Assembly (NCBI GenBank): GCA_964398115.1 | Contig: CAYNLP010000006.1 | Span: forward strand, 1 to 43,406 | DNA length: 43,406 nucleotides | Source: an uncultured Methanosarcinales archaeon | GTDB taxonomy: Archaea; Nanobdellota; Nanobdellia; Woesearchaeales; CAYNLP01 | Reading direction: 5' to 3' | In this document: positions 12,001-15,000 of the stretch, in pieces | Numbering within the stretch: position 1 is the stretch's first letter | How the letters are laid out: every line of letters starts with the position of its first letter | Made by a program: the position numbers

Positions 12001-15000
12001 ATTGTCCAAGATTAGAAAAGATAGTCCTGAAAACATTGCGGAAGATTTATCCAATGAAATCCAAGTTGAAAAACCAATTGGAAGAGTGGAAAATAAAGGT
12101 CCTTACCTTAATTTTTTCATTGATGAGGAAAGTAGAGCAATAAATGTTGTAGAAAGAACTAATGCTGAATTGCTGGAAAAAGAGGAGAGTTCAAAAAAGA
12201 TTTTGATAGAATATCCTAGTCCTAACACGAATAAACCTTTGCATTTAGGTCATGTGAGAAACATGGTATTAGGCAGTAGCGTGGCTAATATTTTAGAGGC
12301 TAAAGGTCATGACGTTGTTGAAGTAAACTTGAATAATGATCGCGGAATCCACATTTGTAAATCAATGCTGGCCTATGAAAAGTGGGGAGATGGTGCTGAG
12401 CCAGACAAAAAATCTGATCATTTCGTAGGAGATTTTTACGTTAAGTTTGCAAAAAAAGCAGAAAAAAATCCAGAGTTGAAAGAAGAAGCACAAGAAATGT
12501 TGAGAAAATGGGAAAAAGACGATGAAGAAGTGAAGCGTTTATGGAAAAAAATGAATGAGTGGGCTTTGAAAGGTTTCAGAGAAACATATGAAAATTACAA
12601 CATTAGTTTTGATAAAGAATATTTTGAAAGTGACGTTTACAAACAGGGTAAAATTTTCATACAGAATAACAAGGATAAGTTCAAGGTTGATGATAATGGA
12701 GCTTTAATCGCCCCGTTAGAAAGAAAGTATGGAATTCAGGACAAAGCTGTCTTAAGAGGAGATGGAACAAGTATTTACGCAACTCAGGACGTTGGTTTAA
12801 CGTTACAAAAAATTAAGGATTTCAATCCCGACAAACAAATTTGGGTGGTGGCGAGAGAACAAAACCTTTACTTCAAACAATTATTCGCGATATTAGACAT
12901 GTTAGACATAGGCGACAAGGAAGATTATTATCATCTTAGTTATGGCATGGTCAACTTGCCAAGTGGTCGTATGAAAAGTAGAGAGGGAAAAGTCGTAGAT
13001 GCTGATGACTTATTAGAAGAGATGAAGAATTTAGCTAGGGAAGAAATAGAGAAGAGAAGAGATGAGTGGGAAGAAGAAAAAGTTGAAAAGGTCAAAGATG
13101 AAGTCGCACTCGCCGCTTTAAGGTTTTTTATTGCAAAATACGATCCAAAAAAAGATTTCACTTTTAACCCAGAAGAAAGTATTAGTTTTGAAGGCGATAC
13201 TGGACCTTACCTGCAATACACGCACGCTAGGATTTGCAGTATTTTAGAGAAAGCCGACAAAGATTTTGAAGATGCCGACGTTAGTAACCTGACAAGTGAA
13301 AAAGAACAAAGTTTATTAAGGGAGATGCAAAGTTTTCCAGCCAGTATAGATAGTGCAGCTGAGAGGTTAAGTCCTCACACTATTTGTAATAAATTACTTG
13401 AGTTAAGTCAATCTTTCAATACTTTCTACCATTCTTGCCCAGTCCTTAATTCAGATAAAGAAAAGGAAAGATTAAAATTAATAGCCGCGGTTAAGGAAAT
13501 GCTTTCAACAGGTCTAGAATTATTAGGTATTGAAGCTCCGGAGGAAATGTAGAAAAAGTGGATATAGAAGAATTAGAAGATGAAATTCCTGAAAAGTGTT
13601 ATCAAGAATTAGAAAAACATGGTTTTACAACTTTAAGACCGGCACAGTACAAAAGTGTAGAGAAAGGTTTGTTTCGAGATGAAAACTTACTTGTAGCGAC
13701 TCCTACCGCTTCGGGAAAAACTCTTGTGGCAGAATTAGCTTTCTTAAATGCGGTTTTAAACGATGAGGGAAAAGCCGTTTATGTTGTGCCGTTAAAAGCT
13801 CTAGCCAGTGAAAAGTATAAGGATTTCACCCAAAGATATCCCGAGTTAGATATTGCAATGAGCAGTGGTGACATGGATAGTGAAGATAGTTATTTGAAAA
13901 ATTATGATATAGTAATCACCACGTCAGAAAAGTTTGATAGTTTACTGAGACATCATGCAGAGTGGATTAATGATGTCAAAGTTTTGATAGTGGATGAAAT
14001 TCATTTGATGAATGACGGTAACCGAGGACCGACTTTAGAAGTGGTCATTACTTTAATGAGGAAGATACTTGAAGATTTGCAAATAATAGGTTTATCCGCT
14101 ACGGTTGGGAATCCTGAAGACATGGCGGATTGGCTTGATGCAGGATTGGTTGAGGATGAGTGGAGACCAGTTCGCCTGGATAAAGGAGTCTATCATGATG
14201 GAAAGATTGAGTTTGTTTAAGACGCTAGGTATATCATTTCTTCTGTGAGAAATCCTTCTTTCTTTATTTCTTCCATCATGAAAAATTCTCGAGTTTCTTC
14301 TACTCCTAATTCTGAAATTTTGTCATTGAATTCTTTTAAGCTTTTCATATCTTTGAACAATACTTCTGCTAAATAGTCGTAGCCGTTGTTGACTCGGTAA
14401 AGATTATTCACGTTTTCACAGTTTTTCAAAAACTTCCCGAATTCTTGTCTTTGACTTGTGGGAACTCTCATCAGCATTGCAACTTTTAGGTCAAATCCTA
14501 ATTTTTCAAAGTCTAGCAACACTGTGTGTCGCTTTACTAAGTCTCCTTTGTACTTCTTTATTCTGTCATGGATGGTGCTGACGGGAACTCTGATAGCTCT
14601 ACTCATACTTGTTAGGTTTTCTCGTCCATTGTTTCTAAGTCTACAGAGTATTTTCAAATCTTTTTCTTTCATCTTATTTCACCTCAGACGCCCCCTCTTT
14701 TTGTAATTGTTATAAAACTTTCAGTATATAACTTTACTTGAAATAAAGAATAGGGTGTATATTTTGCATATATTCCGGTTTAGATGGTTAGAATTCGAAA
14801 AGTTATATTTCTTGATAAACTTCTCCGTAAGCAGTCATTGATGTAACTCCCATTATCATACTAAAGTAGGCGCTTAAGATTAATGGAGCTACAATCGTGA
14901 ATGAAGTTATTGAAGAAGCTATTCCTAACACTATACTTCCTAAGAACCCGTATACCATTACAAAGAGCCATGTGATAAAGTATTCTCCGGTAAGTACTTT

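What a model noticed while it worked through the whole genome (the two positions that open the first line are those of the whole stretch)
13558..14220. Hel308 helicase is a split gene: RecA1 domain encoded alone, far from the rest (order-wide in Woesearchaeales); here the [...]
The Ski2-type DNA repair helicase Hel308 is not encoded by one gene. g00452 (C6 13558-14220, 220 aa, own start and TAA stop, followed by a convergent gene) is only the first RecA-like domain (= residues 1-211 of Pyrococcus Hel308). The remainder lies on another contig: g01079 (C33 1-858; RecA2 part, interrupted by an intein, cut by the contig start) and, as a further ORF 22 nt downstream in another frame, g01080 (C33 881-1519; domains 4-5). 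The RecA1/RecA2 split is a fixed trait of the order Woesearchaeales: the two halves must assemble in trans to form the ATPase cleft.
Evidence so far: Swiss-Prot: g00452 aligns 1-215 to residues 1-211 of 715-aa Pyrococcus Hel308 (53% id, E 2e-67); g01079 to 347-505 (and to the intein-bearing M. jannaschii Hel308 726-995); g01080 to 518-711. DNA after g00452 read: stop TAA, no intein motif at its end. Six-frame search with g00452 in 101 sampled Woesearchaeales genomes: 94 have a match at E<=1e-20, and in 93 of them besides this genome's own the best match (46-71% id over about residues 1-219) lies in an open frame of 197-350 aa (mostly 215-250), i.e. a stand-alone RecA1 gene; the weaker second matches in 640-760-aa frames (30-35% id) are other helicases. 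In four single-contig genomes the C-terminal part (open frames 519-566 aa) lies 38 kb, [...]
(Added by a program. Inside this text positions count along the whole contig: contig position 1 is position 1 of the stretch shown here. "Call 12" and the like, gene names such as g00115 and contig names such as C1 are that model's own, and its searches are not shown. The text may have been shortened before it was handed on; [...] marks where a part breaks off. The agent that wrote the report below was given it as the finding of a first reader that could run no searches.)

Follow-up and report, generated by a model that had tools for sequence, protein, structure and literature searches.

The report
Front subunit of split Hel308 helicase
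This short gene encodes the ATP-binding front third of the DNA-repair helicase Hel308, which a whole order of tiny DPANN archaea encodes as two far-apart genes whose products most likely have to dock together to work.

Summary
Confirmed. Window 13558-14220 (+) is an intact 220-aa gene (GTG start, TAA stop, convergent Lrp/AsnC gene overlapping its end). It matches residues 7-213 of 720-aa P. furiosus Hjm/Hel308 and nothing beyond.

The same stand-alone gene occurs in 110 of 121 sampled genomes of the order, always in open frames of 197-350 aa. The other part (about 510-530 aa: rest of RecA2, winged helix, ratchet, HhH) occurs in 113 of 121, and both in 105. In the 10 genomes with both on one contig they lie 29-424 kb apart.

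All five matching genomes from sister orders keep one 699-735-aa gene.

The cut is clean and lies 19 residues inside RecA2, so the front subunit carries a beta-hairpin. A complex model docks this hairpin onto the RecA2 sheet (ipSAE 0.85, best control 0.00). That pass may only echo solved Hel308 structures.

No intein halves or RNA-joining signals flank the cut.

In this genome the partner on contig C33 is cut by the contig start inside an intein. It is also broken by one out-of-frame deletion of about 22 nt, so its state is unresolved.

I found no paper reporting this. This scan has noted the split three times in other genomes. It is a new member of the known DPANN split genes.

The parts
13558..14220 (+). 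Gene for the N-terminal subunit of the split Hel308 helicase (220 aa, GTG start, TAA stop).
   Evidence: The ORF is shown. It matches PDB 2zj2_A residues 7-213 at E 4.6e-64 and NF002654 positions 1-217 of 739. Stand-alone orthologues occur in 110 of 121 order genomes. An AF2 model of this protein alone has mean pLDDT 90.9.
13696..13722 (+). Motif I / Walker A (ATPTASGKT, residues 47-55).
   Evidence: P49, T50, S52, G53, K54 and T55 are invariant in alignment A1 of 17 N-halves. In the complex model, residues 49-51 face motifs V and VI of the C-half.
13993..14004 (+). Motif II / Walker B (DEIH, residues 146-149).
   Evidence: D146, E147 and H149 are invariant in A1. The coordinates were read.
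14095..14103 (+). Motif III (SAT, residues 180-182).
   Evidence: S180, A181 and T182 are invariant in A1.
14161..14217 (+). C-terminal tail WRPVRLDKGVYHDGKIEFV (residues 202-220). It is the first 19 residues of RecA2 (domain 2) and the proposed docking beta-hairpin.
   Evidence: W202 aligns with P. furiosus Hjm residue 198, which is the first residue of domain 2 (section 'Overview of the structure'). The AF2 model has strands at 210-213 and 216-219. In the G016 pair model, tail residues 203-220 touch C-half residues 157-166, 7 and 10-11. R203, P204 and L207 are invariant.
13540..13544 (+). GGAGG, a possible ribosome-binding site 13 nt before the GTG, inside the end of argS.
   Evidence: Read only. 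The spacing is rather long and no test was made. It suggests co-transcription with argS, which ends at 13552.
11876..13552 (+). argS (arginyl-tRNA synthetase), the upstream neighbour, given as context only.
   Evidence: Pfam finds PF00750, PF05746 and PF03485. The argS adjacency is kept in only 2 of 16 relatives' loci.
14217..14672 (-). Convergent Lrp/AsnC-type regulator gene that overlaps the stop codon by 4 nt, given as context. It leaves no room for a continuation of the helicase frame.
   Evidence: The ORF is and Pfam finds PF01037 and PF13404. The adjacency is kept in 2 of 16 relatives' loci.

Best explanation
The gene encodes the ATP-binding subunit of a two-gene Hel308 (Hjm, Ski2-like SF2 DNA helicase). 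It comprises RecA1 with motifs I, Ia, Ib, II and III, plus the first beta-hairpin of RecA2.

A second, unlinked gene encodes the remainder. That part holds the rest of RecA2 (motifs IV, IVa, V, VI), the winged helix, the ratchet domain, the HhH domain and a C-terminal PIP-like tail.

**Shown**
- An ancestral single gene was cut once, cleanly, in the turn region after that hairpin.
- The cut is kept throughout the order.
- Sister orders keep one gene.
- Both parts keep every catalytic motif.

**Inferred**
- The two proteins join non-covalently into the usual Hel308 ring.
- The hairpin tail of the front subunit adds to the RecA2 sheet beside the strand after motif VI.
- RecA1 packs on the winged helix and the ratchet.
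- As a result the ATP site forms between two polypeptides.
- Neither half should hydrolyse ATP or unwind DNA alone.

In this genome the partner gene carries an intein and a frame-breaking deletion. Whether the enzyme still works here is open.
For: **Identity of the window gene:**

**Two separate genes**
- In five closed or near-closed genomes, profile positions 1-220 and about 211/230-720 match separate frames of 221-235 aa and 519-598 aa.
- In the 10 genomes with both parts on one contig, the parts lie 29-424 kb apart: G021 29, G016 37, G119 54, G034 92, G098 93, G085 170, G022 275, G108 307, G025 332, G097 423 kb.

**Counts in 121 order genomes**

| Part found | Genomes |
|---|---|
| N-half | 110 |
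| C-half | 113 |
| both | 105 |
| N-half only | 5 |
| C-half only | 8 |
| neither | 3 |

The mean loss per half is of the size that MAG incompleteness would give.

**Outside the order:** all 5 matching genomes have frames of 711-744 aa, with ORFs of 699-735 aa.

**Clean cut**
- The unsplit genes read ...GIYxxxEIDFF-NEK-ENIKLEEVSPDSTLNLALST.
- N-halves end ...GVYxDGxIEF plus 0-5 further residues.
- C-halves start with M plus 5-20 residues before xINxALDT.

**Selection**
- A1 (17 N-halves) has a mean column identity of 68%, with motifs I, II and III invariant.
- A2 (27 C-halves) has 60%, with motifs IV, IVa (AFHHAGL), V and VI invariant.

**Complex model of the native G016 pair**
- ipSAE 0.85 in 3 of 3 runs, against a best of 0.00 in 3 controls.
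- The mark was reached by 116 of 157 solved complexes and 2 of 215 mismatched pairs. These counts hold only roughly because I supplied my own alignments.
- The runs agree in at least 96% of contacts, and the partner's pLDDT is at least 88.
- N-half residues 207-212 pair with C-half residues 160-164.

**Wider databases**
- 4380 proteins of 121-385 aa match at E<=1e-30. The best 120 are 216-274 aa long.
- The best listed longer forms are 46-57% identical, against 63-75% for all but one of the listed short forms. Three of those longer forms are themselves intein-bearing N-halves rather than fused genes.

**One origin is not rejected:** AU p 0.606, and the constrained tree has a log-likelihood 6.07 higher.
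Against: - There is no protein or RNA evidence that the halves meet.
- Full-length Hel308 structures are solved, so the complex pass may come from memory of them and shows likeness only.
- 13 of 121 genomes show only one half. Two of these are rated 100% complete: G106 with the C-half only and G096 with the N-half only. A second search with the family profile did not find the missing half in the five genomes tried.
- In this genome the partner is incomplete. Profile positions 226-340 and the intein's front are absent from the assembly. It is also broken by an out-of-frame deletion.
- The N-domain tree does not resolve the split forms as one clade by itself. The free tree needs 2 changes, and the 100/99 clade holds 24 split and 13 fused rows.
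Confidence: 0.85

Rival explanations
1. Orphan subunit in a decaying system. In this genome the partner gene has been inactivated by the deletion on C33, so the window gene is a still-intact remnant without function here. The two-gene enzyme would still work elsewhere in the order.
For: - After ...ELYLD the C33 frame stops at TGA (856-858).
- The true continuation, IECLRKAMSMEYEEFSWLQM, lies in the next frame and fits the family consensus IxCLxxAxxxxxxxFSxLQM.
- About 7 codons (consensus PLTAxxx) plus 1-2 nt are missing.
- tblastn with three relatives places the frame change at nt 845-893.
Against: - Everything else on C33 is intact: motif VI, the winged helix (PF20470), domain 4 (PF21280, model positions 2-125) and HhH.
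- The window gene keeps all 57 invariant residues of A1.
- The break sits exactly at a domain border, and an ATG (875 or 881) can restart translation.
- The source runs hold this organism at a word depth of only 2-5, so an error or a minor variant is possible.
Confidence: 0.25
2. The RecA1 protein works on its own or with another partner, such as another RecA2-bearing protein, and does not form a Hel308 heterodimer.
For: - 5 of 121 genomes show the N-half only and 8 of 121 the C-half only.
- The neighbourhood is not conserved: argS is adjacent in 2 of 16 loci and Lrp in 2 of 16.
Against: - 105 of 121 genomes have both halves.
- The one-half cases are about as frequent as MAG incompleteness would give.
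- Walker A, Walker B and motif III are invariant. By established knowledge of SF2 helicases, an SF2 ATP site needs motif VI from RecA2.
- The tail that belongs structurally to RecA2 is conserved (R203, P204, L207).
- No second RecA2-only gene turned up in the own genome with the Hel308 profile.
Confidence: 0.07
3. The two parts are joined into one chain after expression, either by protein trans-splicing (a split intein) or by RNA trans-splicing.
For: - Inteins are common in this family, in motif V of the C-half here and in G079, G093 and G072.
- Relatives in Nanoarchaeota trans-splice tRNA halves (abstract and passages).
- N. equitans DNA polymerase is listed among the split proteins (Table 1).
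Against: - The two ends add up to the unsplit sequence with nothing extra, so there is no intein fragment on either side.
- The N-half ends in a stop codon and the C-half has its own ATG.
- Flanks of 7 native pairs show no complementary run beyond shuffles in 6 of 7. The seventh is a low-complexity A/T run of 12 nt.
Confidence: 0.02
4. Artefact: a truncated pseudogene or an assembly break was mistaken for a gene.
For: The genome is a 67-contig MAG rated 91% complete.
Against: - The gene lies in the middle of a 43-kb contig with a proper stop and a gene overlapping its end.
- The same end point recurs in 110 of 121 genomes, in 69 further genomes, and in closed genomes.
Confidence: 0.01

Closest known systems
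Archaeal Hel308 / Hjm (P. furiosus 2ZJ2, A. fulgidus 2P6R, S. solfataricus 2VA8; NCBIfam NF002654, NF040935)
   Same: - The window protein aligns end to end with domain 1 plus the first 19 residues of domain 2 (E 4.6e-64).
- It is 53-56% identical to Pyrococcus proteins.
- All motifs are present.
- Relatives' C-halves carry Helicase_C, the winged helix PF20470, domain 4 PF21280 and HhH PF14520 in the same order as unsplit genes.
   Different: - It is encoded by two unlinked genes instead of one of about 700-720 aa.
- Neither half reaches the equivalog cut-offs: 291.9 and 473.2 bits against 887.
Split protein genes of Nanoarchaeota, N. equitans and Nst1: reverse gyrase NEQ318-434, large helicase-related protein NEQ003-409 and others (PMC3655853, Table 1, read as passages)
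   Same: [quoted passage not shown]
- They are derived characters of small-genome DPANN archaea.
- An SF2 helicase (Lhr-type) is among them.
   Different: - Hel308 is not in that table.
- The lineage here is a different order.
- The split is kept across a very large radiation (4380 database proteins).
- The cut lies inside the motor core, between the two RecA domains.
Genes split by split inteins (N. equitans DNA polymerase; 'fractured genes', PMC2677866, seen as search listing and abstract only)
   Same: A replication or repair gene is encoded in two pieces at distant loci.
   Different: There are no intein halves at the cut. The intein in this family's C-half is a contiguous one of about 516 aa in motif V (TPTL|C...HN|S), unrelated to the cut.
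DSHCT-bearing Ski2-like helicases of about 640-660 aa in the same order
   Same: They are SF2 Ski2-like helicases and give the second-best matches, at 29-35% identity.
   Different: They are single-chain proteins with a DSHCT domain PF08148 and without domain 4 or HhH of Hel308. None was found in the window's own genome with these queries.

Membership tests
Hel308/Hjm (Ski2-like SF2 DNA helicase) | RecA1 with motifs I, Ia, Ib, II (DExH) and III. | tested here: met
   Pfam DEAD covers residues 27-187. PTASGKT, TxEK, DEIH and SAT are invariant in A1. The protein aligns with Hjm 7-213.
Hel308/Hjm (Ski2-like SF2 DNA helicase) | RecA2 with motifs IV, IVa (F/YHHAGL), V and VI on the same protein. 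| tested here: not met
   These motifs are absent from the window protein. They are present and invariant on the separate C-half of relatives. In the own genome only the end of motif V and motif VI are seen on C33, and the IVa region is not in the assembly. The name of motif IVa comes from the abstract of PMC10484726 (listing).
Hel308/Hjm (Ski2-like SF2 DNA helicase) | Winged-helix, ratchet (domain 4) and HhH (domain 5) domains. | tested here: met
   They sit on the partner gene, not on the window protein. PF20470, PF21280 and PF14520 are found in G016's C-half and in the two C33 ORFs.
Hel308/Hjm (Ski2-like SF2 DNA helicase) | Whole protein reaches the NCBIfam equivalog cut-off. | tested here: not met
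   The scores are 291.9 bits (N-half) and 473.2 bits (G016 C-half) against 887 for NF002654. An unsplit sister-order protein, at 717.8 bits, also stays below.
Hel308/Hjm (Ski2-like SF2 DNA helicase) | ATP-dependent 3'-5' DNA unwinding. | not testable with these tools
   This needs purified proteins.
Split protein genes of DPANN/Nanoarchaeota type | One gene in most organisms, two separate genes here, cut at the same site in all members. | tested here: met
   The five sister-order genes are unsplit.
Split protein genes of DPANN/Nanoarchaeota type | Both parts retained together and under selection. | tested here: met
   Both parts are found in 105 of 121 genomes. Mean column identity is 68% and 60%, with catalytic residues invariant.
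Split protein genes of DPANN/Nanoarchaeota type | The parts assemble after translation into the working protein. | tested here: inconclusive
   The only evidence is a model: ipSAE 0.85 against a best control of 0.00. The mark was reached by 116 of 157 solved complexes and 2 of 215 mismatched pairs, and the pass may come from memory of solved Hel308 structures.
Split-intein (trans-splicing) genes | An intein N-fragment at the end of the first part and a C-fragment ending in HN plus C/S/T at the start of the second. | tested here: not met
   The ends abut the unsplit sequence with no extra residues.

The most novel reading that the evidence does not exclude
In this genome Hel308 is made from three separate polypeptides: RecA1 plus hairpin (window), RecA2 plus winged helix (after intein excision), and ratchet plus HhH. 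That would show stepwise fragmentation of a ring helicase at or near its domain borders. More widely, the free RecA1 subunit could be a separately expressed, limiting motor part that gives these cells a way to switch the repair helicase on and off.
Probability: 0.15. Interest if true: 0.7.

Novelty: new member of a known kind. Interest (0 to 1): 0.5.

Why it matters
- It would be a natural, long-lived case of an SF2 helicase whose ATP site is built between two polypeptides. This suggests the covalent link between the RecA domains is dispensable, provided a strand tether and the ring contacts remain.
- It marks a natural split site for a helicase that, from my own knowledge, is used as a motor in nanopore sequencing.
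- It corrects annotation. Public records call the listed halves only 'DEAD/DEAH box helicase', 'helicase' or 'hypothetical protein'.
- A survey that demands 60% coverage of COG1204 and drops 'partial' sequences would miss these genes (PMC10946056, methods passage read). Hel308 would then seem absent from a large archaeal order.
- It adds a dated, order-wide marker to the list of DPANN split genes, which have been read as derived characters of symbiotic reduction (PMC3655853, abstract).

Tried and rejected
**Sequencing runs**
- No RNA holder is listed, so nothing can be said on expression.
- Logan contigs of two DNA runs from one study, at word depth about 2-5, were laid on C33 1-1600. No contig covers nt 853-866, the very place of the frame break: pieces end at 852 and restart at 867 in X2 and end at 840 in X1. 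The break is therefore neither confirmed nor removed.
- The contig start could not be extended. The loose ends at nt 335 belong to pieces with 4-6 mismatches, which I read as an intein-free gene from a related organism.

**Other steps that gave nothing**
- The bacterial sigma-70 promoter and terminator scan is not meaningful for an archaeon.
- The same-genus genome G057 (83% complete, 190 contigs) holds only the first 60 residues of a C-half at a contig edge, so it cannot settle the C33 break.
- The apparent further splits of the C-half are not gene splits. G037, G073 and G092 are contig ends, and G103 is a run of N.
- My first reading of C33, a nonsense codon plus a frameshift as two lesions, was dropped once the family consensus showed a single out-of-frame deletion.
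- Tests for RNA-joining complementarity between the flanks were at chance.
- The tree alone did not resolve a single clade of split forms.

**Literature (8 of 10 searches used)**
- 'Hel308' + 'split gene': 2 irrelevant papers.
- 'split genes' + 'DPANN' + 'helicase': 3 papers.
- 'Woesearchaeota' + 'split' + 'helicase': 7 papers.
- 'Nanoarchaeum equitans' + 'split genes' + 'reverse gyrase' + 'helicase': 4 papers.
- 'Hjm' + 'Pyrococcus furiosus' + 'crystal structure' + 'domain 2': 5 papers, run to get the domain borders.
- 'naturally split' + 'helicase' + 'archaea': 20 papers.
- 'Hel308' + 'DPANN': 9 papers.
- 'split protein' / 'DPANN' / 'Woesearchae': 241 papers with at least 2 terms, 20 listed.
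- None reports a split Hel308. Supplements were not opened, and subscription journals are not in the library.
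Full report
**The observation**

Window 13558-14220 (+) is a 220-aa ORF with a GTG start and a TAA stop. argS ends 5 nt upstream. A convergent Lrp/AsnC gene (14217-14672, -) overlaps the stop by 4 nt, so the frame cannot continue.

Pfam sees only a DEAD domain (27-187, E 7e-33) and no Helicase_C. The protein aligns over its whole length with the start of solved Hel308/Hjm structures. Against 2zj2_A (720 aa) it scores E 4.6e-64, residues 9-217 against 7-213. Against 2p6r_A it aligns 1-219 with 1-218. It also matches positions 1-217 of the 739-position NCBIfam equivalog NF002654, at 291.9 bits against a cut-off of 887.

In the own genome (67 contigs, 91% complete) no other strong match to it exists.

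**The other part**

In the own genome, the Hel308 profile finds positions 341-518 and 511-715 on contig C33, in two frames. Nothing is found for positions 226-340.

In five closed or near-closed genomes of the order, positions 1-220 and about 211/230-720 always match separate frames of 221-235 aa and 519-598 aa. These C-halves have their own ATG, or in G085 a GTG or TTG, 5-20 codons before a conserved xINxALDT. One sits right behind a tRNA gene.

**Spread**

| Part found in 121 sampled order genomes | Count | Source |
|---|---|---|
| N-half (E<=1.5e-53, open frames 197-350 aa) | 110 | |
| C-half (E<=1e-30) | 113 | |
| both | 105 | |
| N-half only (G057, G010, G024, G084, G096) | 5 | |
| C-half only (G019, G037, G048, G053, G058, G103, G106, G117) | 8 | |
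| neither | 3 | |

- Most C-halves lie in frames of about 500-570 aa. Four lie in frames of 946-1056 aa that hold an intein.
- One counted genome, G112, is unpublished. It has both halves, and no other claim rests on it.
- A second look with the family profile at five of the one-half genomes did not find the missing half. Two of them are rated 100% complete, which counts against the reading. The overall rate still fits MAG incompleteness.
- A second sample of 151 high-quality genomes of the phylum gave short frames in 110 of at least 117 same-order genomes, 69 of them new.
- In that sample, full-length frames of 711-744 aa appeared in all 5 matching genomes of other orders. Their ORFs are 699-735 aa. 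At least 13 other-order genomes had no match at E<=1e-25.
- In the 10 genomes with both halves on one contig, the halves lie 29-424 kb apart and are never adjacent.
- The neighbourhood of the N-half is not conserved: argS is adjacent in 2 of 16 loci and Lrp in 2 of 16.
- The names 'Woesearchaeota' and 'Nanoarchaeota' come from source labels of close database homologues. The genome tools give only codes.

**Anatomy of the cut**

Aligned with the five unsplit genes, the N-halves end at ...GVYxDGxIEF plus 0-5 further residues. The C-halves begin within three residues of that point. Nothing is lost and nothing added.

W202 of the window protein aligns with Hjm residue 198. That is the first residue of domain 2, given domain 1 as 1-197 and domain 2 as 198-399 (PMC2636818, section 'Overview of the structure'). 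The cut therefore lies 19 residues inside RecA2.

An AF2 model of the window protein alone has mean pLDDT 90.9 and pTM 0.87. It shows this tail as a hairpin, with strands at 210-213 and 216-219.

**Selection**

- 17 N-halves share 68% mean column identity, with motifs I, II and III invariant.
- 27 C-halves share 60%, with motifs IV, IVa, V and VI invariant. These are 27 of 28 loci; L035 was dropped because its start lies off the contig.

**Assembly**

The native G016 pair, each chain given with its alignment, scored ipSAE 0.85 in three of three runs, against a best of 0.00 in three controls. That mark was reached by 116 of 157 solved complexes and 2 of 215 mismatched pairs. These counts hold only roughly because I supplied my own alignments. 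The runs agree in at least 96% of contacts, and the partner's pLDDT is at least 88.

The contacts in the model are:
- N-half tail 203-220 touches C-half 157-166 and residues 7 and 10-11. The lowest-error pairs are 207-212 with 160-164.
- Motif I faces motifs V and VI.
- RecA1 packs on the winged helix (219-228) and on domain 4 (400-407). This is the ring described for Hjm.

Full-length Hel308 structures are solved, so this pass may be memory. It shows likeness, not binding. I used the G016 pair because the own C-half is incomplete.

**Rivals**

- *Joining by split intein.* Excluded on sequence: there are no intein fragments at the ends.
- *RNA joining.* The flanks of 7 native pairs show no complementarity beyond shuffles, except one low-complexity A/T run.
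- *Independent function of the N-half.* Unlikely, given the co-occurrence and the conserved catalytic motifs.
- *Artefact.* Excluded by the recurrence.

**History**

The best listed longer forms in a 5.8-billion-protein collection are 46-57% identical. All but one of the listed stand-alone forms are 63-75% identical.

I built a tree of 57 rows on 220 columns:
- 24 split rows: the window, 16 loci, and 7 of the 120 listed short proteins.
- 33 fused rows: 5 sister-order genes and 28 of the 120 listed long proteins, chosen as top hits or named taxa without inteins.

The tree places all split forms with 13 fused forms in a clade with 100/99 support, unresolved inside. Forcing the split forms into one clade gives a log-likelihood 6.07 higher, with AU p 0.606. 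One fission at or near the base of the order is therefore compatible with the data but not proven.

**The partner in this genome**

C33 starts inside an intein that ends FIVHN|S. The intein sits in motif V (TPTL|...|SMGVDIPA), the same site as the inteins of about 516 aa in G079, G093 and G072. The first 113 or so residues of the C-half and the front of the intein are not in the assembly.

After ...ELYLD the frame stops at TGA 856-858. The next frame reads IECLRKAMSMEYEEFSWLQM, which fits the family consensus IxCLxxAxxxxxxxFSxLQM. One deletion of about 7 codons plus 1-2 nt explains the break. It lies at the winged-helix/ratchet border. The downstream ORF from ATG 881 covers Pfam domain 4 from model position 2.

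This could be an error, a variant, a fresh pseudogene or a third piece. Public contigs do not cover the spot.

**What is known**

Split protein genes are a known trait of Nanoarchaeota. Table 1 of PMC3655853 lists reverse gyrase, a large helicase-related protein and others, but not Hel308 (passages).

The broad survey of archaeal Ski2-like helicases required 60% COG coverage and removed 53 'partial' sequences. It does not mention split forms (PMC10946056, passages). Six searches aimed at such a report and two aimed at context turned up no paper on it.

This scan has noted the same split three times on other genomes (e1-982222, e1-898690, e1-1064149). I saw these notes after my own tests, and they agree with them.

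**Verdict**

It is a new member of a known kind and of moderate interest.

Noticed in passing
G000 contig C33 nt 1-321 (locus L017); L064, L065, L066: The C-half carries an intein in helicase motif V (TPTL|C...HN|S). The own contig begins inside it. G079, G093 and G072 have an intein of about 516 aa at the same site. G087 has an insertion at another site, near C-half residue 149.
   Followed up: partly
G000 contig C33 nt 840-900 (locus L017): An out-of-frame deletion of about 7 codons plus 1-2 nt at the winged-helix/ratchet border cuts the C-half into two ORFs, ending at 858 and restarting at ATG 875 or 881. Public contigs of two runs stop at 852 and restart at 867.
   Followed up: partly
C-termini of C-halves (L032-L055, L074-L077); own L017 about nt 1480-1516: C-halves end in a conserved KRKGQxSLxDF/Y. 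The own copy ends ...PQGQVGLDNFS. This looks like a PIP box. P. furiosus Hjm is reported to bind PCNA through a C-terminal PIP box (PMC2636818).
   Followed up: no
L025 about nt 2105-2135 and L023 about nt 1440-1475 (genome G085): The 3' end of the N-half gene and the 5' end of the C-half gene, 170 kb apart, share a direct repeat of about 28 nt (24 of 28 identical, with a 15-nt exact run seen in 0 of 300 shuffles). It encodes GNRIK in frame in both. It is seen only in this one of the 7 pairs tested. It may be a recent recombination footprint.
   Followed up: partly
Database proteins P0132 (635 aa), P0138 (716 aa), P0147 (466 aa): These are homologues with DEAD plus intein or LAGLIDADG domains but no Helicase_C. 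They look like N-halves that themselves carry an intein. This is judged from the precomputed Pfam lists only.
   Followed up: no
L030 1033-2961 (-) (G097), and similar 629-760-aa frames in many order genomes: A second Ski2-like helicase with a DSHCT domain (PF08148) is common in the order. It was not found in the window's own genome with the queries used.
   Followed up: partly
window 43180-43274 (-): A tRNA match spans 95 nt for a 71-position model, so it probably holds an intron or insert. Two ordinary tRNAs lie at 6397-6469 (-) and 17819-17890 (-).
   Followed up: no
window 11177-11818 (+): This 213-aa protein has a C-terminal half that is a long acidic Glu/Ser/Asp-rich tail. From memory, the N-terminal half looks like ribosomal protein eS6. 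This was not tested.
   Followed up: no
G056 contig C56 6522-8093 (+): The C-half match lies in a 769-aa open frame, about 250 aa longer than usual. The extra part was not examined.
   Followed up: no
L017 nt 335-404, Logan contigs of runs X1 and X2: The same samples hold contigs with 4-6 mismatches that continue upstream of nt 335 with different sequence, beginning 16 nt after the intein/extein junction. I translated the 30-nt loose end by eye as TPTLAMG, an intein-free motif V, so I read them as an intein-free C-half gene from a related organism.
   Followed up: no
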